A stretch of 64,000 nt of DNA, from NCBI GenBank assembly GCA_001599295.1, contig BCGN01000003.1, positions 1 through 64,000 of the forward strand, in the 5' to 3' direction. How positions within the stretch are numbered: the first letter of the stretch is position 1; each line of letters starts with the position of its first letter. Of this stretch, positions 7,498 to 61,383 are shown in pieces. Source of the DNA: Sporopachydermia quercuum. Taxonomy: Eukaryota. The position numbers and the translations under genes are program-made. The notes beneath the pieces were generated by a model. That model saw only the letters and a program-made list of their open reading frames with translations, did no database searches and was not told where the DNA came from.

Positions 7498-9153
7498 ATG
7501 GTACTTGAGAAGGTGAAAGAAACGTTCCGAAAAGGTCGTCTCATTGAGATTGACGATAAATTGATTGATGAAACATATTCAGGAGCAGAGATAGAATTAG
7601 ACAAAGGTGTTCGAAGTGTTGGATATGTTACCGCAATTTTCCTTATTTTCAACCGAATTATCGGTACAGGTATTTTTGCTACACCATCAACAATCTTCAC
7701 ATTATCAGGTTCAGCAGGATTTTCTATGATGTTATGGTTATGCGGTACTATTATTGCATTTTCTGGAATGCTGGTATTTATGGAGTTCGGTGTTGCTTTA
7801 CCGAGAAATGGTGGAGAAAAGAATTATTTAGAATTTGTTTATACTAAACCAAAGTTCTTCATAACATGTTTCTACGCTATCTATGTCTTCTTTCTAGGCC
7901 AAGCATCTGGTAATTCTATTGTGTTTGGAGAGTTTATCTTAAATGCTGCTGGTGTGGAAGTAACAAGATGGAATCAAAGAGGTGTTGGTATTGCATGTCT
8001 TTCATTTGCTTTTCTTATCCACGCCTTTTTCAAGAAGACAGGTATGGTTTTACAGAATGTGTTGGGTACATTCAAACTTGTTATTATTGTAATGATTTCC
8101 GTCATCGGATGGGTAGCATTGTCTGGAAAGCTTAATATTCCACCAGCACATAATTTTGATAATTCATTTGCAGGTACTTCAGGATCTGCTTATGGTGTCG
8201 TGACAGCCCTTTATAGTGTCATTTGGTCCTACCTTGGTTATTCCAATGCAAACTACGCATTAGGAGAAATTAAGGATCCTGTAAAGACATTAAAGGTTGC
8301 AGCACCTGTTGCATTGATTATCGTTGCGATCTTTTATATGTTTGTTAATGTTGCTTATTTTGCTGTTGTACCAGAAGCTGAGTTCAAAGCTTCTGGAACC
8401 ATTTTAGCAGCAAAGTTTTTCAATATAGTATTTGGTGAGGAAGCTGAAAAGGCTCTCTCGGTTATTGTTGCATTATCAGCTTTGGGAAATGTGATGGCCG
8501 TTACCTTTTCTCAGGGAAGACTTTTACAGCAGTTAGCAAGAGAAGGTGTTTTACCTTACTCTTCATTTTTTGCTTCCAGTAAACCTTTTAACTCTCCTGC
8601 TGCTGGTCTTTTTGAACAATACGTTGTATGTCTGATTATTATCGTTGGACCTCCACCAGGTGATGCTTTCGAGTTTATCATGAAGCTTCAATCATATCCT
8701 ATCAATGTTATTAATGCTCTTGTATCTGGTGGTTTGATTTATATATATATTCAAAAAAGAAAAGGTAACATCGAATGGAGTCCTCCATTTAGAGCTACTT
8801 TGCCCGTTGTTATTTTCTTCTTCTTATCAAATGTCTACCTAATTGCTGCACCATTTGTTCCCCCTAGTAACGGTGAAAATGTTTACAATGATCTACCATA
8901 CTGGCTACATTGTGTAGTTGGTATTGGCATTTTATTTCTTGGTGGGGTCTATTGGGTTTTCTGGGCTAGAGTCTTCCCCAAATTGTTGCATTACGAACTT
9001 ATAGTTACTCAAGTTGTCGGTGAAGATGGATTTTACAGAAACAATATCACCAAAAGAAGTACTAAAGCTATTAATGATGTTGAAGGAGATCCTGCCAATG
9101 CAAATTCCAATGATGATTCGAAAGAAGATATTGAAAAAGTCTCTATCAATTAA
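7498..9153 (+). CDS. MUP1: High-affinity methionine permease (APC superfamily, LAT family)
   Basis: 551-aa ORF with IFNRIIGTGIFATPS, PRNGGEKNYLE, WSYLGYSNANY and PPPGDAF motifs typical of Mup1-like permeases. Confidence 0.85.
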   Translation: MVLEKVKETFRKGRLIEIDDKLIDETYSGAEIELDKGVRSVGYVTAIFLIFNRIIGTGIFATPSTIFTLSGSAGFSMMLWLCGTIIAFSGMLVFMEFGVALPRNGGEKNYLEFVYTKPKFFITCFYAIYVFFLGQASGNSIVFGEFILNAAGVEVTRWNQRGVGIACLSFAFLIHAFFKKTGMVLQNVLGTFKLVIIVMISVIGWVALSGKLNIPPAHNFDNSFAGTSGSAYGVVTALYSVIWSYLGYSNANYALGEIKDPVKTLKVAAPVALIIVAIFYMFVNVAYFAVVPEAEFKASGTILAAKFFNIVFGEEAEKALSVIVALSALGNVMAVTFSQGRLLQQLAREGVLPYSSFFASSKPFNSPAAGLFEQYVVCLIIIVGPPPGDAFEFIMKLQSYPINVINALVSGGLIYIYIQKRKGNIEWSPPFRATLPVVIFFFLSNVYLIAAPFVPPSNGENVYNDLPYWLHCVVGIGILFLGGVYWVFWARVFPKLLHYELIVTQVVGEDGFYRNNITKRSTKAINDVEGDPANANSNDDSKEDIEKVSIN

Positions 9154-12100
9154 TCAAATGTTTATCATTAACTTATGTTTATGATTTAAAGGCTGGAGTT
9201 ATTTCGTGGCTTTTTTTATCTCAATCCTTTAATTTTTCTTTTTATTTTATAGACATTTGTTGAATGATTTTATGTTTTGCATTTTTACATACTAAATGAG
9301 TCTATAAAACAAATCAACCTTATGAGGTTGGTACTGTTCTTTATTTACCAATATTGTAGTAGTTTTTAAAGTTAAAACAACCTTGGAGACTAGAAGTCTT
9401 CCAACCTCCACATCAACTGATACCTTTCCAATGTCTCACTTTGTTTATCAGCAAAGACCATATCTGATTATTACAAGTAAAAAGATTAGTTTTCAATATT
9501 ACGAATTTGATGCAAAATTTTCATGCATAAATCGTAATACCAATGCTGGCTCATTTAAGAGGGGGTAGACTTTCTCTGAGGAGAAAAGACAAGGCTCAGA
9601 AAAACGTTAAAGATAAACGTTATTTCAACTTCCTTAAACAAAATAAAGCTTTAAACTTTCTGCACCATTCTCACCTCACAAATTAGTAGCCATTATCTTC
9701 ATCGAAGGGATAGATTGAAAATAAACACTAAAAGAAGAAACTGAAAACAAACTGAGGAGGTATAAACTAGGAAATCTACCAATATTTTTTATGATTATAT
9801 TCCTAGGGAAGTAACGTAGCATAAGTATAAATCCTCCACTTACTTGTTTTCAACCCAAAAGTAATCTATATGAAGCAGGAGATGTCTAGTTCAATAAAAC
9901 AAGTCGAAGATACAATTACCAGGAACATCTTAGGGGATCATGACACATTACAGATACTTGGTTTTATAGTTTCTAGAAAACTATGACTAGAGAACTGGCA
10001 TAAATAGCATAGTCTTAATGATTAGCTTACAGTCTTACCTCTGCTGATCTAGAATAGAAGCATCTCTTTGTTTAATTTATTATAGAAATTCACAACAAAA
10101 TCTAATAGTATTTATTACTAAAACCCCATTTAATATTAAAATACTTATTGCTCTCAAATTTATCTGGCTTAGACTTTGATATGGTGATTACACCTTACTT
10201 CAGATTAGCATTAATAACATTCCTTCAGCTTTTAGTCTTGATGCAGCTGCAGAGTTTTGGGAGGGTGTTTTTTGACTATTTCATATTGCTTTGGGGTATT
10301 GTCGATAAAGTCCTATTGATATCGCTATAAAAGTCTATAATGCAGATATTATAATATTAAGAACTTCTCTTTACTTATTGGAGTTGAGAACAAAACATTT
10401 GAGAGATAAGTATTTTCAAACAGATAGATTGAATATCTATTCAGTTTAATCTGAATGGTGTATAATCTCCAATAGCTAATATTATTTACTAATAATCTAT
10501 ATGTTTTCGTTTTTATTTATTTTTGTTTTTGAATCGCTTTCTGTTGGGAGGTATACAATTATTATAGCTTGACTTCAACTTTCTTATTGCTCTACTCCCT
10601 GACGAATGATACTTCTTGCAATCTATAGAATAAGCTTTGGTTTTATTGTTCATGCGATTAATCTTAACATATATCAAAGCTTAGTAGTCAATATATCATT
10701 CAGTGATAAGTGATTGGCTGCGACCTAAACTTATAGCTGATTCCTAATAATTTCGTATATTTACCTAATGCTCTACTTTAGTGTATAGTAAACGTCCACA
10801 AGTATATGATATTCCTTAGGAATAATGAAAATAAGCATTTTCTGGAAAAACGTTTATTATAATTGTTTTTAATGGTTTCAACTCAGACTTCGTGAAGAAT
10901 GCCTGCATGTGAAGGATTTAAAATATTTCATGCTTTCGAGAGATTCTATTCATTGACCATACTCTGGCTCATAAATCTATTACTTACGCAGGAAAGTCGC
11001 TAGCTCAGTAAACCTTTGTGGCATTTATCAATTAAAAAAACTTCTTTCTAAAGCGGCTCTATTAATACAATTGATTTTTATAATTCAATTTCAAATCAAA
11101 GCCTGTGTCAATTCTTAATACAGTGGAATAGATTGTAGAGACTTCAGTACTCTGAAGTTCAATGAAAAGTACTACGATGGAAAAACATCCGCTGAGATAA
11201 ATTGACTATTAATTGGCTAACAAAAATAATCCCATATTGTAGATTATTTCTGAAAATCTAGGAGCAAAAATAGTTACCAGTATTAAAGCCCAAGCTTTGA
11301 TAATAATCCTAGATGCATTCATTACACTGACTGATAATGAATGGTATTTAGAAAGTTTCCATTAGTCTATAAGTAATTTTCAACCTATACAAACACATTT
11401 GTAAAAACCTATGTACCAACTTTCCAAAGATTTAGCTGTCCAACATGATTTCCACCAGCAATTATTGGCAGTAATTAGTTTATTCTCATTTGAATCAAGC
11501 TAGGATATGGCGCAACACATCAAGCCCTTAAAGTAGTTGGAAGACTTACATATTTGAAGCACAATAATGTACGGCTTGGCAAACAGCTTTGATAAGGATG
11601 GGATTATGTCTCAAATATATATTCTGTCAAGTAAAGATCTGCATCATGTTGTGCTTTGTGCTTTTTCCTAGGTTTATTTTACCTGTATTTTAAGTAGAAG
11701 TATCACTATTGTCCATTTTTGATCAAAGGCAGCTGAAAGGTTNATTCTTTTCTTTTCAATAAAAGAAAATGTTACAGTGACAATTAATTTTCCTTGTTAT
11801 TTTCACTATTCTTTGTATTGAAACAAAGATTAGTTAATCAGATGATAGCATTCCCTTCTACTCAGATACAGATAGGGGCTACATTAGAGAGTAATTTGTA
11901 CCTCAGTCATTTTTGCTTACATTGCACTTCTATTCTGAACAAAACTATAATAATGATCTCAGCCATTACTGTTTTGGTAGATAGTAATCCCACATATAGT
12001 CAAAGGGAAAAACATTTCAGAAAGAAGAAAAAGGCAGAAGAAACTATCATATTCCCGTCTAAGGACATAAATCAGTTATATTATGATTCATAGTTCACTG

Positions 12101-14637
12101 ACTTTAATTATCAATCAATAATTTAACTAGCAATGCAGTGCCAGATCTTCAACGACTTCCAGTAATACTGGGTTAACGAAAGTATTTGATGAACCAACCA
12201 TTAAACGCATATTCTTAATGAAAACATTCTCACTAAGAATGAGAATCCAAAGAACCACTCTGATGTATAACACATATCACAAGTAGCAAACTTATTGGAG
12301 ATAGGGAGGCAGATAAGGTACAAATTCAAGTATTCTCAAGTTTAAATTTTCTAAAGATATTTGAAAAGCAAACAAGTCGTCTTTCTTTCATAGGTTTGCA
12401 TTATTTAGTTGTTCCAGAATTTACCGGTAATGAATAAATAATTTCTCCTGATCAAAGCATCTTTGTCGGCTCCTTTTTCACCTTCCCAACATTGATTTTC
12501 ATTACCAAAATGAGCACCACAATCAAAGAGCCTATGACAGATCATGTTTGCTTTGTAAATGGTCTTGTTGCAAAATCCTTTAGTTGTCACTTCCAATTAC
12601 CGAAGCCAACTAATTAAAAGATTTAGTACTGAGAGTTAAAGCAATTATTGTTCTACTTTCATGTATATTTAAAGAGATTATGAAATAAAACAAGAAAATG
12701 TACTTCAGGAAAACAATAATCAAATAATTCCTCAAAGACTGTCTGTAACATAATAAAAAATAACGAGACAGGCGACGCAGTAATATATTATCGGAATCAT
12801 TTGTGAATAACTTCCATAATCTATACTAATTATTTCAAAAAAAAGGAAAACCAATAGAAGTCTAAAGCAAAGCTTACTATTCCTTTGCGCGATGGGTACG
12901 GTACAATCATCAGATAAGTTAATGAAAAGTTTCCCCATTAAAACTTGTTGTCACTATAATACTACAAGAAACTATTCATGAAATCAGAATAGTACTCTTA
13001 GTAGAATGCAGTTTCCATCAGGACGTTGATCTTTCTTTCTTTCCTTTTTCTTGGGATTGGCTCTCATAATTATCTCACTCGAAAGACATGGATCTAAATT
13101 TTTAGAATCTAAGTTTTAATAATGTCCTACAGTAACTTGGTGTAAATTTAATGGATAACCAATAAAGTCCTATTTGCAGAAAAGTAATAGTGTGTCATTG
13201 TAATGAAGTTTAATTTAGGTTGCATAAACTCCACACTAGCTTCAAGTTAAACTGCAATAGTACACAATTTAAGTTGAGGATCCATCTCATTTGAATGAAA
13301 TGTTAGATTATTATATTCTTAAGTGACACAAGTTGATAAGTTTTCTGAAGCATGGACCGTTAAATCAGCAGCTAAAGGGTTGTTGACACACTAATTATTG
13401 CAAAGAATTATGCTTGCTCTACACGTATTTCTTCAGCACATATCAACACGCTCAACAAATCAATAATAAAATTCAGGTTTTCTATGCAAATTATTACTAA
13501 AACTAATGAGTGCCATCATTTAATTCATATGATGGTCATCAGGTTCTAGATTTCCTAAACTTCAGAACCTTGACATTTATAAGCATCGCAATCATTTCTT
13601 GATCGATTTATCATTTCCCTTGCAAGGTGGTCATTGAAAATATATATTATTACGACCTTGCTAGACAACGTGATCTCCTTGGAACAAAATTATTGTCACC
13701 TTTTAACAATTCTTCAAATACTGGTCTTCTGTTTAAAAAGAAGTAACTGGAAACTGTATACTGGATCAAGCGGAACAAGAGCCAGAAGATGATTATAAAT
13801 CAGAAAAAACTAGGGACATAGATTGTTATTCTCGCTCCGAATGAAAACAATTTATATAACTCAGTAAAAGTGACAGAAAAGTATTAAAGGTTATTCTTTC
13901 CTTATCTATGTCTAGAATCAGTCTACTTGTGAAGTTGATTGAGCTTTTAGCAAGCGAGAGGAACGTATTTGCTGGAAATAAACGATAAAACCACTAATTT
14001 AACGTTCTAACTTTATGCAATAGTATGCATGGATAAAAGTAAGGTTTTTGATACAGTAAAAGTAAGTAAAAATTTTATTCAATTTATAAGGTAATAATAT
14101 AATATAGAGATAAATAAAAGGAAAGAGCATAGAGTCTGATATAGCAAAATCAGTAATATTTAGACTTTCAGTAATCAATAATAAAGTAGTAAAATAATAA
14201 TACGATAAAATGATAAAATGATAAAACGATAAGAAAATATAGTCACACGAAAGCTAAATAGTATTCATATTATATTTCAATAAGCGACAGCATTTGACCT
14301 GACGTCTCGTCTCGTCCCATTCAGCCATGAACAAAAACTTTAAAGTTCAAGAGGGCGAAGTATAAGTAGAGAGATAACGTTTGACTACAAAGGGGTTTCG
14401 GGGATTCAAGCTTGAAAGCACTAAACTTTGAATGAAATGACACAATTTCTGCAAGAATGAATCAAATCAAGTAGATCCTAGTTACATTCGTCTTCCTTGC
14501 AGATATTGTAATTGAAAAGTTTGAATGTATGAATAAGAATTCCCAAGAACAAAATTTTTACAGGTGAACTTTTTTGGCTTACATTTATTAGCTTTTAGAA
14601 TTTAATCGATACATTTTTTCATTAAAACAAATAGCTT

Positions 14638-15816
14638 TTAAATAAGGAAAGGTTTTTCGGCCATTGGTGTTAATCTGAAGGCATGTTTTCTATGAGGAAC
14701 CTCATCACCAAGTAAACTAGTATGAGCCGTTCGTCGATTATCCCAAACAACTACGGTTCCGGGCTTCAATGATGCACGAGCATGGAATTCCTTACCTTGA
14801 GATATGTGATCATATAAAAATTTTAAAATATAGTCCGATTCTTGTTTCTTTAACTGTAGAATTCTTCTACAGAAAATAGGATTAACAAATAACGACCTCT
14901 GACCAGTTACAGGGTGCGTTCGCACAATTGGATGCTCACTGATAGTTAATCCACGTTTTATACCTTTTCCACCAAATTTGGATAACGTGTCCTTGCCTTG
15001 CTCAATTCCTGAGTGAATGACAGTTAAGTGCTCTAAAAATTTCTGGAAAATTGGAGACAGTAAATTGTAGGCTTCTACTGTATCAACAAAATTAACATCA
15101 CTCCCGTTCTCGGGCAGTTCTAAAACTCCCAAAAATGTCACACCAGATGGTTGTCTCTCAAATGAGATATCAGAATTCCATAATGATCGTTCAAAAGACG
15201 TAACTACATCTGGTTGGGAACTATCTCTGAGCTTTGGGCTATAAAAGCTACTTATCTCTGGATAGCCTTTCGGAGAACCTGCAGCAGGATGAATGTGTGG
15301 GGGACCGAAGTAATTCGAAAATTTGACGATATCATCCAATGGTTGATCTTTTAAATCTTGATCTCGAAAAACAACAAATCCTCTCTGCTCGACAAATAAT
15401 GCTAACTCGTCCTTTTGGGTATCGCTTAGTTTTGATAACTGAATTCCACTCACCTCAGTACCAAACCTGGGTGTGACTTCTGAAATCTTGATATCAGAGG
15501 AATGGAATAAGTGATGAAACGAGGGATCTGCTCTCTTTCCAACATCTTCATGCTCGAATGCCTGTGGAATTTCGTAGGTTATCCATTTCTGATGAAAAGG
15601 AAGAAACTGTGGATATAAAGCTCTTTCTGCTTCTTCGGGTGCTAGCACAAAATTTCCTTCTTCGTCCTCAACAACTTTATACCGAAATACCTGTATTGCA
15701 ACTAATCCATTGTTACTTATTCCATTTAGAGCCCCTTGGTCAACACTGCTAGAGACTTCTATGTTTTGCAATGATTTGAGGTTTTCAATTGCAGCAGGTG
15801 CACTTATTGTTTCCAT
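14638..15816 (-). CDS. Divergent JLP1/TauD-family dioxygenase-like protein with a degenerate active site (WNSD instead of WHSD)
   Basis: 392-aa intact ORF that aligns along its length to the three paralogs (GIQLSKL, HIHP, HPIVRTHPVTG, WDNRRTAH). The first Fe-ligand His is Asn. Confidence 0.85.
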   Translation of the reverse strand: METISAPAAIENLKSLQNIEVSSSVDQGALNGISNNGLVAIQVFRYKVVEDEEGNFVLAPEEAERALYPQFLPFHQKWITYEIPQAFEHEDVGKRADPSFHHLFHSSDIKISEVTPRFGTEVSGIQLSKLSDTQKDELALFVEQRGFVVFRDQDLKDQPLDDIVKFSNYFGPPHIHPAAGSPKGYPEISSFYSPKLRDSSQPDVVTSFERSLWNSDISFERQPSGVTFLGVLELPENGSDVNFVDTVEAYNLLSPIFQKFLEHLTVIHSGIEQGKDTLSKFGGKGIKRGLTISEHPIVRTHPVTGQRSLFVNPIFCRRILQLKKQESDYILKFLYDHISQGKEFHARASLKPGTVVVWDNRRTAHTSLLGDEVPHRKHAFRLTPMAEKPFLI

Positions 15817-18419
15817 CTTTATAACCGAATATATCTTTTCTTATCTTATAATCAACAAAAGAGATAAGAATTATTTTTCAATTTGCTTTTCAGTTGTGTT
15901 GTAGTTCGTATTGATCAAACAAAGTAAATCAGTTAGAACTATTGTTAAAAGAGGAAACCCCAAATATATGTATGTATGTTTTAAGGGTGTTTCAACGCGA
16001 ATTGGTATAGGCTATTCAAGTAACAAATAAGGAATCCAGTGTATCTCTCCACGGAGCCATTAACAGTTATCTGTAAATGAAACGAAACACTACTTCGTGA
16101 GCTAAACTTTCTAGATTGTTCAAAATAAAAACTCTAAAATTGGGAAGTACGAAATAAGTTCGGACTTTCGGATATAAACATGAAATACTGGAGGAAGTCG
16201 AGAAATAGAAAATTTTCAGTTGATACAAACTCGGTTTAGATATTTCTGTTTTACATTGGAACTAATGACTATCAAACCCTCTTTATTTACCAATGATTTG
16301 TTCGAAGGATTCTCGAAAAAAGTCTAATACAATCCCTGCTGGTCAAAGTTTTTGTGGTTTGCATCTAAGGCTTTACTTTAGGTTTGCTGTAATTTAGGCA
16401 GCTAATGAACTTAGAAGGAACTTAGAAGGAACTCAAAATAAAAAGAATAAATAACGAAGACTAAATAAACTCTATTTATAGACTTATTGAAAGCAATTTT
16501 TCATATAATAGTATTAGTAAAACTGGTTTCTCATCATTTTTAATTCTAACAAGATTATTGAAAAAACATTTTTAGTTGTTTTTCAATTTTTTTATGAAAG
16601 AAGAGCTTCCGGATGTTGAACAATGTTTCCTTTTTTCATGTCAGAACTACTTGAGATATTTATAGAGATTCACCGACATTGGTGATATAGTTTGACGACT
16701 TTCTTTTTCCGAGAAAGTATAATAACTAAATCAATTGATTTATGAAGGAGAACCTTTTTCTTAAATCTAAACAAAAAAAAATTGAAAATCAAACTGTGAA
16801 TGACTTGTAAGATAGCGATAAAGCATCATTTGTAGTAGCNAAGGATATAGCACCTTCATCATCTTTCCCTTCCGACAGCTTTCAACTCATTAGAAGACTT
16901 AGGACCCCTCTATATAATATATTCCAATATTCCAACTGAGTTCCATAAAGCTCAAGTCAGGGTTTATTTACTGATCAGATAGTAGCATTATTTATGCCTC
17001 ACGATGGTCTCTGGATATTACTTTGGAAATATAACATTAGGGTGAATACTTGCTCGAAGTGTTTAATCACTCTCTTCTACAGTTTATCCTACCACTTTTT
17101 CAGCTTATCATCTATTCTAACTAAGTATTTGAAATAAATTAACTCCAGGTTATATTTGTACCTTTCAACGGTTGTTCAACGTGAGAGTTCATATTGACTT
17201 AATTTCATTAGTCATTAACATGTTAGATGGCCTAAAGCTAAAGAAAGTTTTAATGAACCAAACTTCAATTCGTTTCGTAAATCCAAATCTGAGCCAACCA
17301 ATGGAAATACACTCAACTCAAAACGCTCCATGACAAAACTTTGGTCTCTCTCTGCTTGACTTGACTGATGCTTGCAAGATACAACATTTAATGGATACAT
17401 TAGAGCGAAACTGATAACTTTTATTGTTCGCTGACTCTTGCAGGAGTTGAAGGTAAACTGTTTTGTATTCACAACTTTACTATTTGTTGTTCAAAAAGTT
17501 GGGGTCAGTTAAATCGGGAGAATTTAAACAAAACAAAAATGGAACGGCCAGGTCAAATTGGGATAAGATAGTGATCTTGAGTTTTCCAACTACTAAATAC
17601 AACATATAATTTGATGATCAACCATAGCTGCTATTGAACAGCCTTCTGATATTTTATCATTGTATTAATTATCGCGCAATGACGTAAATTAATTATTATT
17701 GAAATTCTTATGCTCAGGCTAATACCAATATTATACTAACAATCGCTTTCATTTAGATTAATCAGAACAGCTTGGAAAATTACCTAACAAGCATCATCCA
17801 ATAAACTATATTATAAGAAATTGTTATCAAACAACATAAAGTACCCTTCATATAAATTAGCAAACTCTTGATGCTGGATAATAGCATTTAATGCTAATTA
17901 ACACCTTCAATGATAGGGAATCGGCTAGTCCGCCCTTTACTTATGCATTGCATAACTTCTTATTAAGTCATACTTTTTAACCATGGACTCCCCCAAAATA
18001 GAATAGAAAGGAGGCTTTTTGAATCATCAGAAACTTATTTAGGGATTATTTTCTCACTTGCCTTTCTTTCGTACTTAGGATATGGCATCATTTTCTTTGC
18101 AACTCGTGATTTGACGCAAATAAAGTTCCCCGTAAATCACCAATAAGATTTGAACTTGAATTTAACTTAAAAAATATTCTTCACACTTAGAAAGAAAAAT
18201 ACTAATTCTAAAGAATATTTTGATGTTACGGTAATACGGAATTAACAATCTTTTAGGCAACAGTTGTTGAGATTTGAATATAAATTCAATTGAAATGCTC
18301 TCTCATTAATAGTAGTACAGATATAATTTTAGAATCATGATAGAATGCAAACAACAGGACCTAGAAAATAGATTATGGGAATACAATTGAAGTTGTTCAG
18401 ACTTACAAGCAGGATCAAA

Positions 18420-20321
18420 ATGTCAAGCAAAGTACCTAAAGAGGCATCTGAATTTACCAAAGCAAATAATGCTGTGGTTTTGAATCAATTGCCTTTTGAC
18501 AATCAACAGGATTTTGAAAATTCTAGAAGAGGATTCATTGCTACTGTTGAGGATGAAGTCGTAAAGACCCCTAATGGTAAAGTGGCAATTGATATCAGCC
18601 AGTATGATTTTCTTAGAGATGAATCAAAGGCTCCTGATACTGTAAATCCAAGTTTATGGAGACAATCACAGTTACTACAGATTCACGGGTTATTTGAAAT
18701 AGTTAAGGGTGTTTATCAATTCAGGAATGTTGACCTTGCTAATACAACTTTTATTCGTGGTGAAAGAGGTTGGATTGTAATTGACGTTCTTACATCATTG
18801 GAAACTGCAAAAGTGTCATTGGATCTTATTAATAAACATGTAGAGAATCTGCCAGTAACTGGTGTTATTATCACACATTCTCACCTAGATCATTTTGGGG
18901 GGTTACGGGCAATTGTAGATGAAGAAGATGTTTTATCAGGAAAAATTCCTCTTGTTGTACCGGAAGGGTTCTACGAAGAATCTATTAGTGAAAACGTTTT
19001 TGCCGGAAATGCAATGAGCCGTCGTGCATCGTATATGTTTGGGAGGCTGATTCCGAAAAACACAAAAGGAAGTGTAGGAAATGGGCTGGGTACGGGATTG
19101 GTTTCTGGCTCAGTTTCTCTGTTCAAGCCAAACAAAGAAGTCACAACAACTGGGGAAAGGGTTACAGTTGACGGCATTGAATTTGAATTTTTAATGGCTC
19201 CCGAATCTGAGGCTCCAGCAGAAGCAATGATCTATGTTCCCAAGTTTAAGCTTCTTCATGCTGCAGAGAATGCTGGTCATACTTTGCACAATCTTTTAAC
19301 TTTGAGAGGAGCTAAAATTAGAAGTGCTAAGAAATGGTCAGGATATCTGCATGAAGCCATTCAAAGATGGGGGAACGAAGCTGAAGTATCTGTTGGAGGA
19401 CATGCTTGGCCAACTTGGGGTAAGCAAGCTGTGATTGACCATTTAGCCACTCAACGAGATTTGTACAAATACATTAATGATCAGACTTTGAGACTTGCTA
19501 ATCAAGGTTACACATTGAACGAAGTTGCTGAGAAATTTGTCTTACCAGAGGCGTTATCCAAAGAATTCAGTAACAGAAGTTATTATGGTCATTTGAAACA
19601 TAATATTAGAGCAACATATGTTTTTTATCTTGGATTCTGGGATGGTAATCCAGGAAATTTTGATCCTTACACTCCTGAAGAAGAAGCAAAAAAGATTACT
19701 GAACTTATTGGTGTTGAAAAAGCCTTTGAGGCTGCTCAAAAGGCGTTTGACCTAGGTGATTATCGTTGGACTGTCAATCTTACCAATAAATTAGTATTTG
19801 CAAATCCGGAGAACGAAAAAGCACGTTTATTAGAAGCTGATGCTTTAGAGCAATTAGCATATCAAGAAGAATCTGCAACTGTAAGAAACTATTATCTTAC
19901 CGGTGCTCAAGAACTTCGCAATGGCGTCAATAAGCCTAATGATCCAGTAGGAATCTCTGCAGATATTGTCGCTGGTTTGTCAATTAGTATCATCTTGGAT
20001 TTTCTGGCTATTCACTTAAATGGTCCTAAAATTGGAAACAAGCAGTTCAGCTTTAATCTTACTTTACCCGATATCAATGAAGAATATTCTATTTCTATTG
20101 CTAATGGTGTCTTAAACTTTACTGAAAACTTACTTGAAAACGTGGATGCATTTGTCACATTTAATAGATCTGTCTTGAATGACATTGCTCTCGGAAAATA
20201 TGAATTTAAAGAAGCACTTGCCACTGGAAANATCAAAATTGAAGGCACAAAAGAGAAGTTCTTTGAAGTTATACCTTACTTTGATAAGTTTGAGTTCTGG
20301 TTCAATATTTCTGAACCATGA
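18420..20321 (+). CDS. BDS1: Alkyl/aryl-sulfatase of the metallo-beta-lactamase fold (SdsA1/Bds1 type)
   Basis: Motifs TVNPSLWRQ, THSHLDHFGG, HNLLTLRGAKIR, RSYYG and an SCP2-like C-terminus. The ORF opens at ATG 18375; the likelier start is ATG 18420 (AAAATG context, MSSKVPKEAS). Confidence 0.9.
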   Translation: MSSKVPKEASEFTKANNAVVLNQLPFDNQQDFENSRRGFIATVEDEVVKTPNGKVAIDISQYDFLRDESKAPDTVNPSLWRQSQLLQIHGLFEIVKGVYQFRNVDLANTTFIRGERGWIVIDVLTSLETAKVSLDLINKHVENLPVTGVIITHSHLDHFGGLRAIVDEEDVLSGKIPLVVPEGFYEESISENVFAGNAMSRRASYMFGRLIPKNTKGSVGNGLGTGLVSGSVSLFKPNKEVTTTGERVTVDGIEFEFLMAPESEAPAEAMIYVPKFKLLHAAENAGHTLHNLLTLRGAKIRSAKKWSGYLHEAIQRWGNEAEVSVGGHAWPTWGKQAVIDHLATQRDLYKYINDQTLRLANQGYTLNEVAEKFVLPEALSKEFSNRSYYGHLKHNIRATYVFYLGFWDGNPGNFDPYTPEEEAKKITELIGVEKAFEAAQKAFDLGDYRWTVNLTNKLVFANPENEKARLLEADALEQLAYQEESATVRNYYLTGAQELRNGVNKPNDPVGISADIVAGLSISIILDFLAIHLNGPKIGNKQFSFNLTLPDINEEYSISIANGVLNFTENLLENVDAFVTFNRSVLNDIALGKYEFKEALATGXIKIEGTKEKFFEVIPYFDKFEFWFNISEP

Positions 20322-22613
20322 TGAAGGTCTTGTTGCACAAGTTTGACAGAAATAACTTCACATTTTATTCAAATGTCAATCTTAAAATTAATCATTTGAT
20401 TACTCAATTGAAGAATCTAATAGGGCTAATTTGTCGTTGTCAATAATGGAAAAGGATGCGCTGTTAAAATTATTAAGCAGTTTTGAAGAAAAAGTCAGGC
20501 ATATCATAGATCCTTCGGATTTCAGTTTATATTCTAGTTTTAAAAAGTCTATTATTTTCTCATTGACGTCTAGGATAGACCTCTCGTAGTCTCCATTTTG
20601 CTAAACATGCATTTATAGTAAAAGCTTGTTAGTTTGGAAGCTATGACATGAGATTCAACTGTGAAGTCGGAAGATATTACAATTTATTTGGATATTCATT
20701 CTTTGACTTGTTAATCATTTCCAAAAATTTTATAGGTGGTTTTTTTACTATTTCATTACTGAATTGGGTTTGAAGTATGTATAGATTGTTTGGAGATACT
20801 AGTCTATCAAATTATCATTCATCATTGTTGTAAACATTAGAAAGGAAACAATTTCAAATATCTCCCTATTGGGAATGTAAGTATAATAAACTCTAATGAA
20901 ATTAAAGATATTACTTTAACTGTAACCTAATTTTAGGTTTCTCGCCAATATTTCGCCTATTTCTACGTAAAGCACGTCATTCACTATATCCATATATCGA
21001 GACGGAAATATATTTTTTAAATCTCCGGCTTCTCCAAACTGTATTTTAAGATTCATCTGGAGCATAATTTCTTCATGAAACCATGAAGAATATCCATAAC
21101 ATGATTTCATCTTCCATGGATTTCCATTCCATAGCTTCTACAAGAAATTGATGTTTGCTGTATTATTTTCCAAACAGCAGAGAGCGCTAAACTTACCAGG
21201 AGGCAATACATTTCTAGTTGGTAGCAACCAAATCGTTCCTTCAGAAAGGACGCACATAAGGTAGCTGAAAGTATTTATTGGTTTTCTAACATGTTTCTTT
21301 GGTTCTACGAGAGATTTTCAAGAAGTTCGTCGCGTCACAGTTCACCCATATAATTTCCTTAATCCACATTGGTTATAAACTGAAGAACAAGAACACTGGA
21401 GCGGACAATTATAAATAGAGTTGATAGACTAGAATAATATATGGACGTAACTTCTTCTTCTAGTCTTAGATTGAGGAATCTGGTGCTGACTGACTGACAC
21501 CTTAGCGCTTGCTGAAACATCTGCTGATCAGAGACTCCCAACTACACTGCTTTACAAGATATCTGGAAAGGATTAACTATAATTTTGCTTGCAATATTAG
21601 AGCTGCTTTCAGCTTTATTGGCTAATTTGACAATAACAGTCGGCTTTGTGACTTTTCCTAATGTTCTTGTTTCTCATTTCCAGAATCCGAGATCCCAATT
21701 CTGTTAAACAATGAATATTGCCTTGCAATTGAGTTTAAGATTTATGCATACAAAAACATTAGAACCTTAAATGGACACCCTAAATTACCCTCTGTTTCTC
21801 CTGATTCACGTTTGACATATTTACTTTATCTTTAATTACCAAATGTGGTAACTCATCGAACCTTAATCCAAAGAGTTTCGACATTTTATTTCACTTTTCA
21901 AGTAAATAGAGATATGATTTCTAGTACTCCATAGGGACGATGATTTTGATTCATCATTCTGTTCCCCTTACCTTGAAAATCTAAAGAGAAGACCTGTATT
22001 CTCAGAGATAGCTATTTTAGCTACCAAAGAAAAATAGGAACTCTAATGATCCGAAAGAGTAGTTTTGGGGGAACCATCCTTCTTTTCAAGATAACCGATT
22101 TCCTTCCTTTAAATCCTTATAGTGAAGCTTTGTATACTATAATTTTCCTGTAGCTTTGTAACTTTGAGCTGATTAATGAGTTCTCTTACCACGATTACTG
22201 ATTAATCTGACCTGGAAAAATTGTCACTCTGGATTGGCTTCTATACAATTTTGCCTTTTCACAACTGAAAACTTTCAAACCATTTATTTGACTTCTTTTG
22301 TAGATTCAGACTATACTAAAGCTAAAAACTAATAGTATGGTAGTGTATTCTTATTGCTTGGTTTCCTTTTTGTTGTTCATAAATACTGAATCATTGGCAA
22401 TTTCGAGTATTTACGAACAACAAAATTAGTAATGTCAATAAAATGAAAATTAATGACTCGTTCAATATGAGAACAAATNAAATTCATCCTTTTCTATCAA
22501 AGAGTGCGAACGAATTAAAAATCATATTCGTTTTCAATGGTACTTTTTGTTTTTACTGCTAGGAATTAACAGTCCTACTTTATCATGTGCAAACATTTCA
22601 AAATTTCTCTCTC

Positions 22614-22622
22614 TCACGTGAC
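22614..22622. promoter_or_regulatory. Cbf1-type E-box TCACGTGAC upstream of JLP1 paralog b
   Basis: Exact consensus match ~290 bp upstream of ATG 22910. Confidence 0.6.
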
Positions 22623-22909
22623 ATTTGTATGAAGAAAATTGTAATCTTTACATACAAAAAAGCATAAAGTTTATGTTTACAAGTATGTTTAGCTTCCGCA
22701 TTGAGCAATAATTTGCAACTCTATCTTAAAGAAAAAAGTATATAAGAAAGAATCACTTCCCGGAACTCTTTCTAAAGCAAATATTATCGTAAAGAGTGGA
22801 CGAGATATTAGCCTTACTATTGTCCTTTTCCATCAATTACTTTTTAGTCCCACTTAATAATCAGTTTTTGAAATTACTCATCTCAGGAAAAAAAATTATT
22901 AGTATCAAA

Positions 22910-24082
22910 ATGGCTCCAACTGCATCTGCCACTGTTACAGTAACAGAACAAAACGATCAAGCTCGCTTGTTAAAAGACAAGAAAGCTGAAGAGCTAAAGA
23001 ATTTGATTTACCCAGTAAAAACTTACGGACTAGAATACAAAACTGTTGAAGATGAAGAAGGAAATTTTGTTATAGACCCCGAAGAGGCAAAAGGAGTATT
23101 GTATCCTCATTTTTTGCCATTCCACCAGAAAACAATTACTCATGAGTTACCAGGAGAATTTACAATTGAAGATGTTGCTAAAAAAGCTGATCCTTCATTC
23201 AAAAATCTTTTTAACTCGGAAAACATCAAAAAGTCAAACATTACCCCCAAGTTTGGAACAGACCTTTCTGGTATTCAACTTTCCAAATTAAACGATGCTC
23301 AAAAGGATGAACTTGCTCTGTTCATCGAACAAAGAGGATTGGTTGTACTTCGTGATCAAGATTTGAAAGATCAACCTTTGGATGATATCGTCAAATTTGG
23401 NGAATATTTTGGTCCTCAACACATTCATCCAGCAACTCCTTCGCCAAAGGGATATCCTCAAATTCATCTTGTTTATAAGCCTGAAAAAGAGGTGATCGCG
23501 GATCAAATCTTTTCGGACAAACTTAACAGTCTGGGATGGCACAGTGATATATCTTTTGAAGAACAACCAGCTTCGTTATCGTTTCTAGCAATTCTAGAAC
23601 TACCAGAGAGCGGTGGTGATACTTTGTTTGCTAATACTGCTGAAGCTTACAACAGACTGTCCCCAGCACTACAAAAGTTCTTGGAAGGGTTGACCGTCAT
23701 TCACTCCGGCATTGAACAGGGAGAAATGACTTTGAATAAGTTTGGTGGTAAAGGAATTAAGCGCGGATTAGCAATTAGTGAGCATCCCGTTGTTCGTACT
23801 CATCCAGTAACAGGAGAAAGGGCATTATATGTTAACCCTATCTTTTCAAGACGAATTCCTCAATTGAAGAAAGAAGAGTCTGATTACCTATTAAATTTCC
23901 TTTACGACCACATTTCTAAAGGACAAGATTTTCAAGCCAGAGCCAAATGGGAAGTAGGAACTGTCGTAGCCTGGGATAATAGGAAGACTGTGCATAGTCC
24001 TTTATTCGATTGGAGCTCCTCTGAAAGACGGCACCTATTTAGATTGACACCATTGGGCGAGAAACCATTCTTTAAGCCATAA
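22910..24082 (+). CDS. JLP1: Fe(II)/2-oxoglutarate-dependent sulfonate dioxygenase (JLP1/TauD family), paralog b
   Basis: Intact WHSD...GGDT...WDNRKTVH...RRHLFR motifs. Start placed at ATG 22910 (MAPTASAT, matches paralogs) rather than the track's GTG 22796. Confidence 0.9.
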   Translation: MAPTASATVTVTEQNDQARLLKDKKAEELKNLIYPVKTYGLEYKTVEDEEGNFVIDPEEAKGVLYPHFLPFHQKTITHELPGEFTIEDVAKKADPSFKNLFNSENIKKSNITPKFGTDLSGIQLSKLNDAQKDELALFIEQRGLVVLRDQDLKDQPLDDIVKFXEYFGPQHIHPATPSPKGYPQIHLVYKPEKEVIADQIFSDKLNSLGWHSDISFEEQPASLSFLAILELPESGGDTLFANTAEAYNRLSPALQKFLEGLTVIHSGIEQGEMTLNKFGGKGIKRGLAISEHPVVRTHPVTGERALYVNPIFSRRIPQLKKEESDYLLNFLYDHISKGQDFQARAKWEVGTVVAWDNRKTVHSPLFDWSSSERRHLFRLTPLGEKPFFKP

Positions 24083-24683: not shown

Positions 24684-25844
24684 ATGGCTCCAACAGTGAC
24701 TGAACAGAGTTTCACTAGTGGTGACACTACTGAACAATTATTGAAAGATCAAAAGGCTGAAGAGCTCAAGAAACTGGTATCAGGAGCTCAAACCTATGGT
24801 TACAACTACAAGTCCGTTGAAAATGAAGATGGTGATTTCGTTGTAGCTCCTGAAGAAGCCGAAGGAGCACTGTATCCACAGTTTTTACCTTCTCACCAAA
24901 AAGCCATTACACACCAGGTGCCAGGAGAATTTACAATTGAAGATGTTGCTAAAAAAGCTGATCCTTCATTCAAAAATCTTTTTAACTCGGAAAACATCAA
25001 AAAGTCAAACATTACCCCCAANTTTGGAACAGACCTTTCTGGTATTCAACTTTCCAAATTAAACGATGCTCAAAAGGATGAACTTGCTCTGTTCATCGAA
25101 CAAAGAGGATTGGTTGTACTTCGTGATCAAGATTTGAAAGATCAACCTTTGGATGATATCGTCAAATTTGGNGAATATTTTGGTCCTCAACACATTCATC
25201 CAGCTACGGGCTCGCCCAAGGGTTACCCCCAAATTCATGTTGTTTATAGGGCCAAGCAAGAAGGTGCCACCACCAACATATTCAAGGATCGTTTGAACAG
25301 TATAGCATGGCATAGTGATATTTCCTTTGAAGAGCAGCCGGCGGCTTTATCTTTTTTAGCAATCCTAGAGTTGCCAGATAGTGGTGGTGACACTATATTT
25401 GCTAATACTGCTGAAGCTTACAACAGATTGTCTCCAGCACTACAAAAATTCCTTGAAAGCTTAACTGTTATTCATTCAGGACTTGAACAAGGAAAGAACA
25501 CTCTAAATAGATTTGGTGGTAAAGGAATTAAGCGTGGATTGGCAATTAGTGAGCATCCCGTTGTTCGTACTCATCCAGTAACAGGAGAAAAGGCATTGTT
25601 TGTGAATCCTGCGTTCTCAAGACGAATTCCCCAATTGAAGAAGGAAGAGTCTGATTACGTGTTGAATTTCCTTTACGATCACATTTCTAAGGGACAAGAT
25701 TTCCAAGCCAGAGCCAAATGGGAAGTAGGAACTGTCGTAGCCTGGGACAATAGAAAAACTGTTCACAGTGCATTGTTTGATTGGGATACTGTTGAGAGAA
25801 GACATGCCTTTAGATTGACTCCCCTTGGAGAGAGGCCGTTCTAA
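24684..25844 (+). CDS. JLP1: Fe(II)/2-oxoglutarate-dependent sulfonate dioxygenase (JLP1/TauD family), paralog c
   Basis: Intact WHSD, GGDT, WDNRKTVH and RRHAFR motifs. Tandem with paralog b. First ATG is at 24684. Confidence 0.9.
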   Translation: MAPTVTEQSFTSGDTTEQLLKDQKAEELKKLVSGAQTYGYNYKSVENEDGDFVVAPEEAEGALYPQFLPSHQKAITHQVPGEFTIEDVAKKADPSFKNLFNSENIKKSNITPXFGTDLSGIQLSKLNDAQKDELALFIEQRGLVVLRDQDLKDQPLDDIVKFXEYFGPQHIHPATGSPKGYPQIHVVYRAKQEGATTNIFKDRLNSIAWHSDISFEEQPAALSFLAILELPDSGGDTIFANTAEAYNRLSPALQKFLESLTVIHSGLEQGKNTLNRFGGKGIKRGLAISEHPVVRTHPVTGEKALFVNPAFSRRIPQLKKEESDYVLNFLYDHISKGQDFQARAKWEVGTVVAWDNRKTVHSALFDWDTVERRHAFRLTPLGERPF

Positions 25845-29748: not shown

Positions 29749-30921
29749 ATGGCCCCAACTGTGTCTGCTACTGTCAGCGTTGTTGAGCAAGATCAAGAGA
29801 GACAACTCTTGAAGGATAAAAGAGCTGAAGAACTGAAGAATCTCGTAACACCCAGAGCTCTTTATGCATATCCATATAAAACAGTTGAAGATGAAGATGG
29901 AAACTTTGTGATTGACCCTGAAGAAGCAAAAAGTGCATTGTATCCTCGATTCTTGCCTACCCATCAAAAAGAAATCACTCATGAAATCCCTGATGAGTTC
30001 GAAATTGAGGATGTAGGCAAACGAGCTGATCCTTCATTCAAAAATCTTTTTAACTCGGAAAACATCAAAAAGTCAAACATTACNCCCAAGTTTGGAACAG
30101 ACCTTTCTGGTATTCAACTTTCCAAATTAAACGATGCTCAAAAGGATGAACTTGCTCTGTTCATCGAACAAAGAGGATTGGTTGTACTTCGTGATCAAGA
30201 TTTGAAAGATCAACCCTTCGAAGATATCATCAAGTTTAGTGAGTACTTTGGTCCTCAGCATGTCCACCCTGCCTCTGGTGCGCCAAAAGGATTTCCAGAA
30301 ATTCATGTTGTTTATAGACCTCCGGTAGAGATAGACCATGATAGAGTTTTTGCTGAGAAGTTGAATACCATTGGGTGGCACAGTGATGTTTCTTACGAGA
30401 GACAACCTGCATCTTTGTCTTTCCTCGCTATTCTTGAATTGCCTGAATCTGGTGGTGACACCTTGTTTGCTGATACTACTGAAGCATACAACAGACTTTC
30501 TCCTGCTCTTCAAAAATTCCTTGAAGGATTAACTGTGGTTCACTCTGGTCTAGAGCAAGGACAGGAAGCCTTGAGAAAGTTTGGAGGTAAAGGTATCAAA
30601 CGTGGATTAGCTATCAGTGAGCATCCTGTTGTTAGGACACATCCAGTAACCGGTACAAAATCCTTATATGTTAATCCTACATTTTCAAGGCGAATTGTAC
30701 AACTAAAGAAAGAAGAATCAGACTGGTTATTGAACTTTTTGTATGATCACATTTCTAAAGGACAAGATTTTCATGCAAGAGCTAAGTGGGAAGTTGGCAC
30801 TGTTGTAGCTTGGGACAACAGACGTACAGTTCACTCTGCCTTATTTGACTGGTATTCTCCTGAAAGAAGACACGCTTTCAGATTGACTCCTTTAGGTGAG
30901 AAACCCTTTTTCGAAGCTTGA
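29749..30921 (+). CDS. JLP1: Fe(II)/2-oxoglutarate-dependent sulfonate dioxygenase (JLP1/TauD family), paralog d
   Basis: 390 aa with WHSDVSYE, GGDT, WDNRRTVH and RRHAFR motifs intact. Divergently transcribed from the SOA1-like gene. Confidence 0.9.
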   Translation: MAPTVSATVSVVEQDQERQLLKDKRAEELKNLVTPRALYAYPYKTVEDEDGNFVIDPEEAKSALYPRFLPTHQKEITHEIPDEFEIEDVGKRADPSFKNLFNSENIKKSNIXPKFGTDLSGIQLSKLNDAQKDELALFIEQRGLVVLRDQDLKDQPFEDIIKFSEYFGPQHVHPASGAPKGFPEIHVVYRPPVEIDHDRVFAEKLNTIGWHSDVSYERQPASLSFLAILELPESGGDTLFADTTEAYNRLSPALQKFLEGLTVVHSGLEQGQEALRKFGGKGIKRGLAISEHPVVRTHPVTGTKSLYVNPTFSRRIVQLKKEESDWLLNFLYDHISKGQDFHARAKWEVGTVVAWDNRRTVHSALFDWYSPERRHAFRLTPLGEKPFFEA

Positions 30922-60800: not shown

Positions 60801-61383
60801 AATTGAATCCCACACGGCAGAAATGAGAAACCAGCTGCAAAGTATCGATGGACTTAAAAACACCTTCTTACAAGGATATAAAGGTACCGTTACAGCATTA
60901 GAGGAAGAACTGCTTGTAGTGAAGCAGGAAATAGACAATTACACGTTCGCTGTTGATAACAGAGAAGCAGTTGAAGTAGGGCAGTATGCTATGCCGGGGG
61001 CTGTTCCCCGCACGTTAAAAAGGAGGGAATTGGTGGGAGATATCTATGATGAAGATGAGTTTAGGGGGATCAGGGAGACCAGGGAGACCAGAGAAAGCAG
61101 TGAAAGCAGAGAAGACAGGGAAAACGATGAGAATACTAGCAGCAAGATTGTTAATGCTGATTCTAATGCCGCTACTCCTGCTTCTTCCACCTCTGCTGCC
61201 CCTGCCACTCCTAGAACTCCTCTAGAACCTATTGCAGTTCCCAATCAAATGCCGAACATGCCGGCCGGTGGCAACGACGGTAAATCGATCACCGCTATCG
61301 CCTCCAACGGCTCAATGCTGCCGCCAGGTTCTAAAAAGAGAGCCGCAAGCGTCACTGGACCAGCCAAAAGGTTCCGCTTGTAA
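57871..61383 (+). CDS. KIP1: Kinesin-5 (BimC family) mitotic motor
   Basis: Motor motifs GQTGTGKT, SSRSH, LNLVDLAGSE, HIPYRESKLTRLLQDSLGG, neck KNGVY and a long coiled-coil stalk. Divergent from PRX1, the same arrangement as S. cerevisiae PRX1-KIP1. Confidence 0.9.
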   Translation: MAGASRSSHYASGTAKGPKYSLPANGTSGHRKSTYQLGKSRQTLTEISAFPPRQPANSALTNSANPTNPVPSESNIHVYVRCRGRNDREISENSAVVVTTKGINQKEITLQTTAAANSTTIPNSTTKTYTFDGVFGPESNQEMLYEGVAANVLKEMLQGYNCTIFAYGQTGTGKTYTMSGDLAEISELAALNSLSSTNLPISAGIIPRTLHNLFHSLGKSASQPEYSVKVSFIELYNEELKDLLAPPGAEDRKVRIYDDSSNRNKDQSKGSITVQGMEEIYISSAAEGLYLLQQGSLRRQVAATQCNDLSSRSHSVFTITAHLKEAVPGGEDVLRVGKLNLVDLAGSENINRSGAENKRAREAGLINQSLLTLGRVINALVDKSPHIPYRESKLTRLLQDSLGGRTKTCIIATVSPAKVSLEETLSTLEYANRAKSIKNKPQQNQSLSRKTVLREFVGEIERLRNDLAAARSKNGVYLAQETYTELMAESESRRVHAEELKLQQQGLEEXLRRTKLEAAGQAQELARAQKMLVRTEELLAGKQVLLEETQAELVGANKNLEQEKIVCAAHVETEVKLHGVVQQLRTLLENAVQDINLLQESVAGKQKLETENVAGTQELQSSVLQSANSAAAHLARALVAVDTFQTESTTGTQEIARIAQDHSXTSGELVESSRIQTDALFSSLHQKISSSTAELATRAQELRRAQETLQQDIGSDMAQMVSATEALAQNTTDGIQDLRTGVQLAFNQLGKQFRTLIANFQQELVQQTETIESLHGKLALSAREAESLAQENQKLVQRLFAAQNQETEASAETLAADIAQEVAAITARAVETFATQRKSRLRETETLVADRLRTSQETVSAAHSNSTAAAAAWIAHSKQYQADIHMAKTELKQELVAAHRNLDTEIARAQESTTAQHTARLKTLASQAVRWHEELNSLLHQASLLQTDSQTSAHAVGDSVSGIQATMHDQQDQLVRQIESHTAEMRNQLQSIDGLKNTFLQGYKGTVTALEEELLVVKQEIDNYTFAVDNREAVEVGQYAMPGAVPRTLKRRELVGDIYDEDEFRGIRETRETRESSESREDRENDENTSSKIVNADSNAATPASSTSAAPATPRTPLEPIAVPNQMPNMPAGGNDGKSITAIASNGSMLPPGSKKRAASVTGPAKRFRL

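What the first reader, a model, noticed from the sequence alone, without database searches (positions are those of the whole stretch)
14638..15816. TauD-family pseudoenzyme: Fe and 2OG ligands lost, sulfonate-binding residues kept
Seen, relative to the three paralogs: WHSD is WNSD (AAT, 15175-15177), GGDT is GSDV (15094-15096) and RRHxFR is RKHAFR (14686-14688). The ORF is full length with no stops or frameshifts, and HIHP, the distal His (WDNRRTAH) and the final Arg (FRLT) are retained. Established: in E. coli TauD the HxD His binds Fe, the GGDT Thr and the first Arg of RxxxR bind 2OG, and the upstream His and second Arg bind the sulfonate. Inference: the targeted loss of cofactor residues suggests a non-catalytic sulfonate-binding, sensing or hetero-oligomeric partner, rather than random decay.
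Basis: partly seen in the sequence, partly recalled or inferred. Interest (0 to 1): 0.75.

Follow-up and report, generated by a model that had tools for sequence, protein, structure and literature searches.

The report
Catalytically dead yeast sulfonate dioxygenase copy
A yeast keeps an old extra copy of a sulfur-scavenging enzyme that has lost key iron- and co-substrate-binding residues, yet the rest of the protein is still preserved by selection, so it probably has a non-catalytic job that nobody has tested.

Summary
Observation confirmed: H214N, G239S/T241V and R377K lie at the stated codons in an intact 392-aa ORF, identical in contigs of two runs that may be the assembly's source. The gene is the earliest branch of a 7-member clade among 12 Jlp1/TauD paralogs. 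Synonymous sites are saturated, branch dN/dS is about 0.07 (dN/dS=1 rejected, LRT 59). Nine of 76 family-invariant residues changed (0-4 in each paralog), 7 in the Fe/2OG core. Codon models favour long freeing of about 11-16% of sites over late neutral decay (delta lnL about 20; control paralog none). So it is most likely a selected pseudoenzyme, not a young pseudogene. Corrections: only 1 of 3 iron ligands is lost (D216, H365 kept), R-to-K is conservative, and the sulfonate pocket is remodelled (H189S, R193S, S210R, D370G, W371D) though H176 and R381 remain. No ortholog (best full-length hit 50%) and no expression data exist here. An independent dead TauD clade (7 fungal proteins) shows the loss recurs. 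Best guess: non-catalytic anion-binding subunit; the mechanism is inferred, not shown.

The parts
14638..15816 (-). Jlp1/TauD-family pseudoenzyme ORF, 392 aa (L001)
   Evidence: Pfam TauD 166.7 bits, cut-off 27; AF2 pLDDT 90.2; Foldseek top hit TauD 1OS7, E 2.8e-26
15175..15177 (-). H214N: first Fe ligand (TauD His99) lost
15094..15102 (-). GDT changed to SDV (G239S, T241V); T241 aligns to the TauD GGDT Thr (2OG role recalled)
14686..14688 (-). R377K: 2OG C5-carboxylate Arg (TauD Arg266) conservatively replaced
   Evidence: role from PMC7949033 passage
14767..14769 (-).
14704..14709 (-).
15187..15252 (-). Remodelled substrate-side strand and loop: H189S, V191F, R193S, S210R
15289..15291 (-). 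H176 kept (TauD His70, sulfonate ligand)
14674..14676 (-). R381 kept (TauD Arg270, sulfonate ligand)
15169..15171 (-). D216 kept (Fe ligand, TauD Asp101)
14722..14724 (-). H365 kept (distal Fe ligand, TauD His255)
22910..24082 (+). Intact-motif paralog L004
24684..25844 (+). Intact-motif paralog L003
29749..30921 (+). Intact-motif paralog L002

Best explanation
An old duplicate of a yeast Jlp1-type sulfonate dioxygenase that no longer does Fe(II)/2-oxoglutarate chemistry but is kept by purifying selection as a folded, non-catalytic protein (about 0.7 for this part). Most likely mechanism (about half of that): the old substrate pocket, still lined by His176 and Arg381 but reshaped, binds a sulfonate, sulfate-ester or similar small anion without turning it over, and the protein does so as a subunit that can co-assemble with the active paralogs of the same sulfur-scavenging cluster, buffering or tuning them. 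Shown: substitutions, intact ORF, fold model, selection statistics. Inferred: loss of activity, ligand binding, oligomer, physiological role.
For: pS to all six paralogs 0.74-0.86 (saturated) with dN 0.26-0.34. Branch dN/dS 0.069 vs background 0.078; dN/dS=1 rejected, LRT 59. 67 of 76 invariant residues kept; 7 of the 9 changes fall in a 16-residue core-motif set (p=1.5e-4, set chosen after seeing the data; 3 of 5 cofactor ligands, p=0.011). Late neutral decay long enough to give these changes (0.08 substitutions/site) predicts about 5 stops, P(no stop) 0.005-0.009. Whole-gene fits: null -5281.7, late decay -5281.1, site-specific freeing -5261.1 (16% of sites); same model on control paralog L005 gave no gain. 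Outside the most conserved class L001 changes at 31 of 138 core-invariant sites vs 25 of 138 for L005. If free for the fitted 0.65 substitutions/site, H176+R381 would both survive with p about 0.07 and H176+H365+R381 with p about 0.015; in an independent dead TauD clade the Arg270 equivalent is lost in 7 of 7 and the distal His in 5 of 7, so the fold does not need them. Complex model with paralog L002: score 0.40, best of 3 controls 0.00, runs agree in >=85% of contacts, partner pLDDT 86; weak, since the mark was reached by 51 of 78 solved and 2 of 108 mismatched pairs but at <=0.60 by only 5 of 78 solved and all 4 passing mismatches, and solved TauD oligomers may be remembered.
Against: No ortholog to show cross-species conservation (best full-length hit 50%; representatives 47%; fragments 41-61% over short spans). 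Pocket residues H189, R193, S210, D370, W371 are changed, so substrate binding may be gone. Five of the 9 invariant-site losses in the core (H214N, G239S, W350L, D370G, R377K) are single-base changes, compatible with a more recent loss; at 0.2-0.3 substitutions/site the survival of H176+R381 is unremarkable (p 0.25-0.39). No Cbf1-type CACGTG within 1 kb upstream, unlike 4 of 6 clade paralogs. Codon adaptation is at the low end (0.60 vs 0.59-0.77). The N-terminal 43 residues have diverged from a helix shared by the six paralogs. Models rest on 7 sequences with saturated dS and gene conversion among three paralogs.
Confidence: 0.38

Rival explanations
1. Selected pseudoenzyme acting only through protein contacts (scaffold, assembly partner or dominant-negative regulator of the active paralogs or another protein); the pocket binds nothing relevant.
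For: Scaffold conserved at the normal rate while both cofactor and several substrate-pocket residues changed; 0 of 22 invariant sites before residue 213 changed against 9 of 54 after (p=0.052); weak complex score 0.40 vs 0.00 control (limits as above).
Against: H176, H365 and R381 persist although an independent dead clade loses the latter two in most or all members.
Confidence: 0.2
2. Neofunctionalised enzyme: Asn214/Asp216/His365 still hold a metal, Lys377 and Arg381 hold an anionic substrate, and the protein does 2OG-independent or non-oxidative chemistry.
For: D216 and H365 both kept (p about 0.05 if free for 0.65 substitutions/site); N and K are polar single-step replacements; R-to-K occurs in 2 full-length homologs with an intact triad (P0193, P0200); ScoE lacks the Arg266 equivalent yet works (PMC7949033 passages); 11-16% of sites across all conservation classes changed fast, which positive selection could also give.
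Against: No Asn at this position in 120 of 120 close homologs, 150 representatives or 120 further proteins; His99 substitutions inactivate E. coli TauD (recalled from Grzyska 2007, not seen); Thr, Trp and Asp-Trp of the co-substrate side are lost together; D216 is also kept in 7 of 7 members of the dead clade, so it may be structural.
Confidence: 0.17
3. Decaying duplicate: an active enzyme for most of its history that lost function recently (or drifts under weak selection) and has not yet picked up a stop.
For: 11 other intact-motif paralogs make it redundant; longest branch in the clade (0.59 vs 0.03-0.34); weaker promoter and codon signals; branch-average dN/dS cannot see a short final neutral phase.
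Against: Neutral decay explains neither the clustering, the multi-base changes T241V and W371D, nor the intact frame (P 0.005-0.009 before frameshifts); uniform relaxation gives no gain (k=0.87, delta lnL 0.8).
Confidence: 0.18
4. Still a weak Fe/2OG sulfonate dioxygenase.
For: Two Fe ligands, Lys at 377, His176 and Arg381 remain; a His99Ala TauD variant is recalled to form a ferryl species (not seen in any call).
Against: Five or more cofactor-side residues that are invariant in 119-120 of 120 homologs are changed at once.
Confidence: 0.05

Closest known systems
S. cerevisiae Jlp1 and fungal sulfonate/2-oxoglutarate dioxygenases (C. albicans Jlp11-22)
   Same: Pfam TauD domain with fungal N-terminal extension; 42-51% identity to listed fungal homologs, some named sulfonate dioxygenase; multi-copy family in a sulfur-scavenging cluster, as described for yeasts (PMC5857272, PMC13170222 passages).
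   Different: HxD His, GGDT Gly/Thr, first Arg, Trp350 and Asp-Trp replaced; those passages describe no non-catalytic paralog.
E. coli TauD (PDB 1GQW/1OS7), AtsK, Rv3406
   Same: Same fold (phmmer E 6.8e-32; Foldseek E 2.8e-26, target TM 0.84); His70, Asp101, His255, Arg270, Val102, Phe104, Phe206 equivalents kept or conservative.
   Different: His99 to Asn, Thr126 to Val, Arg266 to Lys, Trp240 to Leu; Ile83/Asn95 region altered.
Dead TauD clade of filamentous ascomycetes found here (P0223, P0243, P0271, P0272, P0273, P0287, P0385)
   Same: HxD His lost (Thr/Ser/Ala/Val), Asp kept in 7 of 7, one clade with support 100; in one species an intact copy (P0298) coexists with the dead one.
   Different: Independent origin in another subfamily; they also lose both Arg residues (7 of 7) and mostly the distal His, and most carry a long C-terminal tail; conserved across several genera, unlike the single-genome gene here.
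Pseudoenzymes of other 2OG-oxygenase families (e.g. inactive JmjC proteins such as JARID2; recalled)
   Same: Fold kept, metal/2OG ligands lost, regulatory role.
   Different: Chromatin proteins with known partners; recalled, not tested here.

Membership tests
TauD/TfdA fold family (PF02668) | Profile score above curated cut-off | tested here: met
   166.7 bits vs 27
TauD/TfdA fold family (PF02668) | TauD-like three-dimensional fold | tested here: met
   AF2 model pLDDT 90.2, pTM 0.90; top Foldseek hit 1OS7; model only
Active Fe(II)/2OG sulfonate dioxygenase (Jlp1/TauD) | HxD...H iron triad | tested here: not met
   N214-x-D216...H365
Active Fe(II)/2OG sulfonate dioxygenase (Jlp1/TauD) | 2OG-binding Arg (TauD Arg266) and GGDT Thr | tested here: not met
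   K377 and V241; Arg role from PMC7949033 and PMC3675115 passages; Thr role recalled
Active Fe(II)/2OG sulfonate dioxygenase (Jlp1/TauD) | Sulfonate ligands His70 and Arg270 | tested here: met
   H176, R381
Active Fe(II)/2OG sulfonate dioxygenase (Jlp1/TauD) | Rest of the substrate pocket as in the subfamily | tested here: inconclusive
   Of 12 positions mapped from the TauD pocket list, 7 match the paralogs (176, 217, 219, 273, 274, 315, 381) and 5 differ from most of them (179, 189, 209, 210, 212); loop register uncertain
Active Fe(II)/2OG sulfonate dioxygenase (Jlp1/TauD) | Sulfite release from sulfonates | not testable with these tools
   needs enzyme assay
Pseudoenzyme (selected, non-catalytic) | Purifying selection continuing after loss of catalytic residues | tested here: met
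   from paralogs only, 7 sequences, saturated dS
Pseudoenzyme (selected, non-catalytic) | Conserved orthologs in other species | tested here: inconclusive
   none found, but no close relative of the whole 7-member clade is in the databases either
Pseudoenzyme (selected, non-catalytic) | Expressed, inactive, with a non-catalytic function | not testable with these tools
   needs RNA, protein and bench data

The most novel reading that the evidence does not exclude
A dedicated non-catalytic sulfonate/sulfur-anion sensor or regulatory subunit built from Jlp1, the first such component of fungal sulfur scavenging, and one of several independent births of dead TauD proteins in eukaryotes; alternatively an Asn/Asp/His metal site doing new, 2OG-free chemistry.
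Probability: 0.3. Interest if true: 0.75.

Novelty: new variant of a known kind. Interest (0 to 1): 0.52.

Why it matters
Fungi carry many Jlp1/TauD copies whose roles are mostly unknown (in C. albicans only 1 of 5 mutants showed a taurine defect; PMC13170222 passage), and all are annotated as dioxygenases. A selected dead copy inside a sulfur-scavenging cluster, with near-identical active neighbours as controls, makes it easy to test whether this family also supplies binding or regulatory subunits. The second dead clade found here suggests the phenomenon recurs and that database annotations are wrong for such proteins. Limits: one genome, no expression data, no phenotype.

Tried and rejected
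Orthologs: protein search (1289 hits, best 120 listed, best 50-51% identity), 50%-cluster representatives (best 47%), short fragments (48 hits), metagenome contigs (1 unrelated 25% locus of 97 pattern matches), ESM Atlas (only ordinary TauD clusters): none. Expression: no RNA holder listed; no evidence either way. Run X4 (organism B) gave one 250-base piece at depth 2 identical to the window, taken as carry-over and not as an ortholog; X5 laid nothing. The 'opposite strand joint' is the same contig matching a paralog. Second DNA copy of the locus: none, only paralogs at 66-68%. Promoter: de novo 7-9-mer scan gave GAAACC-type words with no shared context, rejected; one AAACTGTG at -982 in the divergent spacer shared with the alkyl sulfatase gene is uninformative. 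Rfam on 9000-23000: 0. Uniform-relaxation and late-decay codon models: no gain (the relax fit failed numerically and was redone). Gene conversion as the cause of conservation: rejected, the converted tract excludes L001 (62-81% vs 97-100%). Literature: full-text searches for TauD + pseudoenzyme (1 irrelevant paper) and related term sets (listings and abstract starts only) found no described TauD/Jlp1 pseudoenzyme; the library lacks most subscription papers. The TauD facial-triad mutagenesis paper could not be read; PMC2767507 passages report only its D101 and H255 results. PMC4019311 and PMC13178082 gave nothing on His99. Cluster-member names for P0223/P0243 could not be looked up by that tool.

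Full report
Setting. The window is the first 64 kb of contig C3 of a 16.4-Mb, 15-contig eukaryotic genome. Intron-free ORFs and the homologs found (Lipomyces, other ascomycetes) point to a budding yeast (inference); CTG reads as Leu at the conserved LELP motif. The first 41 kb hold a sulfur-scavenging cluster: amino-acid permease, alkyl sulfatase, four TauD genes, MFS transporters and an arylsulfatase-type sulfatase. The genome has 12 Jlp1-like TauD genes and 4 more distant PF02668 matches that I did not inspect.

Observation. The ORF 14638-15816 (-) is intact and has N214 (AAT 15175-15177), S239, V241 (GTT 15094-15096) and K377 (AAA 14686-14688). All 11 other paralogs and 120 of 120 listed homologs have His, Gly, Thr, Arg there. 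Alignment to E. coli TauD maps H176 to His70, N214 to His99, D216 to Asp101 and H365 to His255. Passages of PMC9304159 give His99/Asp101/His255 as iron ligands and His70/Arg270 as taurine ligands; passages of PMC7949033 give Arg266 as the 2OG C5 ligand. The roles of Thr126 and Trp240 are recalled; a search found no usable passage. Contigs of two runs reproduce the 1701-base stretch with no difference, but both may be the source of the assembly. Two of three iron ligands remain.

Age. The protein is sister to the other six members of a genome-specific clade (support 87/89; clade 100/100) on the longest branch, 0.59 (7 paralogs and 11 of 120 homologs used; a long branch may be misplaced). It keeps the family consensus at 5 sites where all six others share a derived residue (0-2 such sites for the others). 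Synonymous sites to every paralog are saturated (pS 0.74-0.86) while dN is 0.26-0.34. It is an old duplicate.

Selection. A codon branch model on 347 codons gives dN/dS 0.069 on this branch vs 0.078 elsewhere; fixing it at 1 costs LRT 59. Because a branch average can hide a late neutral phase, I tested that directly. Of 76 sites invariant in >=95% of 120 homologs and in all six paralogs, 9 are changed (0-4 for each paralog by the same count). Neutral decay needs about 0.08 substitutions/site to give this, which predicts about 5 stops (P of none 0.005-0.009) before counting frameshifts; a model with about 17% of these sites free for about 0.65 substitutions/site fits 5 lnL units better without, and about 10 with, the stop penalty. 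On all codons, with site classes set from outside homologs: null -5281.7, late decay -5281.1, uniform relaxation -5280.9, site-specific freeing -5261.1; without the poorly aligned loop the gain is 14.5; the same model on control paralog L005 gains 0 (3.9 with per-class fractions). The changes cluster: 3 of 5 Fe/2OG ligands vs 6 of 71 other invariant sites (p=0.011), 7 of 16 core-motif residues vs 2 of 60 (p=1.5e-4, post hoc set). Caveats: home-made models, 7 sequences, saturated dS, a gene-conversion tract among L002/L003/L004, and no test can exclude that the gene fell silent very recently.

Structure. AlphaFold2 with a 123-sequence alignment gives pLDDT 90.2 and Foldseek ranks TauD 1OS7 first; this shows compatibility with the fold, not activity. 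A complex model with paralog L002 scored 0.40 against a best control of 0.00 (contacts agree >=85%, partner pLDDT 86): weak support, reached by 51 of 78 solved and 2 of 108 mismatched pairs, but at 0.60 or under by only 5 of 78 solved ones and all 4 passing mismatches; likeness to solved TauD oligomers may explain it.

A natural control. Among 150 representatives two fungal proteins lacked the HxD His in a clean motif. A search from one of them returned 120 listed proteins, of which 7 form one clade (support 100 in a 24-row FastTree) with His replaced by Thr/Ser/Ala/Val, Asp kept in 7 of 7, both Arg lost in 7 of 7 and the distal His lost in 5 of 7. Source names place them in Cucurbitaria, Neocucurbitaria, Pyrenochaeta, Paraphoma, Coniothyrium and Ophiobolus. 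So dead TauD proteins can be conserved across genera, and the fold does not need the distal His or Arg270. Their survival in the yeast protein (p about 0.015 for H176+H365+R381 if free for 0.65 substitutions/site, but 0.12-0.23 at 0.2-0.3) is modest evidence for a pocket that still binds something.

Mechanism. Most likely the protein is a selected pseudoenzyme (about 0.7). Within that, I favour non-catalytic binding of a sulfonate-like anion through H176/R381 in a reshaped pocket, plausibly in mixed oligomers with active neighbours (0.38), over a pure scaffold or regulator (0.2) or a new chemistry on an Asn/Asp/His site (0.17, counted apart). Late decay keeps 0.18 and residual normal activity 0.05. 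Loss of activity is inferred from motif invariance and from the recalled result that TauD His99 cannot be substituted (paper not seen); against it stand ScoE, active without the Arg266 equivalent, two natural Arg-to-Lys homologs and tolerance of His255 changes in TauD (PMC2767507 passage). Co-regulation is not shown: no CACGTG within 1 kb, which 4 of 6 clade paralogs have, and low-end codon adaptation.

Comparison and novelty. It is a member of the TauD fold family but fails the test for an active Jlp1/TauD dioxygenase. Four full-text searches (listings and abstract starts) found no described TauD/Jlp1 pseudoenzyme; subscription papers and supplements were not seen. Pseudoenzymes are a known kind, so this is a new variant. 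Papers seen as passages only: PMC9304159, PMC2767507, PMC4019311, PMC7949033, PMC5857272, PMC3675115, PMC13170222; PMC13178082 searched with no hit. Interest 0.52: real, statistically supported and easy to test, but one genome, no ortholog and no expression evidence.

Noticed in passing
proteins P0223, P0243, P0271, P0272, P0273, P0287, P0385: A conserved clade of filamentous-ascomycete TauD proteins lacking the HxD His and both Arg residues, mostly with a long C-terminal tail, annotated as sulfonate dioxygenase or TauD-domain protein; a multi-genus pseudoenzyme family worth its own study.
   Followed up: partly
window about 23220-23400, 24980-25160, 30060-30240 (residues 104-163 in L001 numbering): About 180-nt gene-conversion tract, 97-100% identical among the three intact paralogs L002/L003/L004 whose other parts are about 50-90% identical.
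   Followed up: partly
window 7498-40576: Contig-end sulfur-scavenging cluster: amino-acid permease, alkyl sulfatase (Bds1-like, family with reported bacterial transfers), four TauD genes, MFS transporters (two near-duplicate tandem copies at 35212 and 38891) and a sulfatase.
   Followed up: no
G000 C6:1404297-1424069, C8:1294453, C7:172459, C4:28335, C3:1714442: Large Jlp1 expansion: 12 copies in two clades, four of them clustered on C6; L006/L007 have their own pocket changes (H189L, Q273F), suggesting different substrates.
   Followed up: no
window 9154-14637: 5.5 kb without an ORF of 100 aa or more and without an Rfam match, downstream of the pseudoenzyme.
   Followed up: partly
window 15172-15174: Ser215 is coded TCT here but AGT in all six paralogs, a two-base codon-set switch right beside the His-to-Asn change; unexplained.
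   Followed up: no
window 57871-61383: Kinesin-like gene with GC 50-54% against about 34% for the rest of the window.
   Followed up: no
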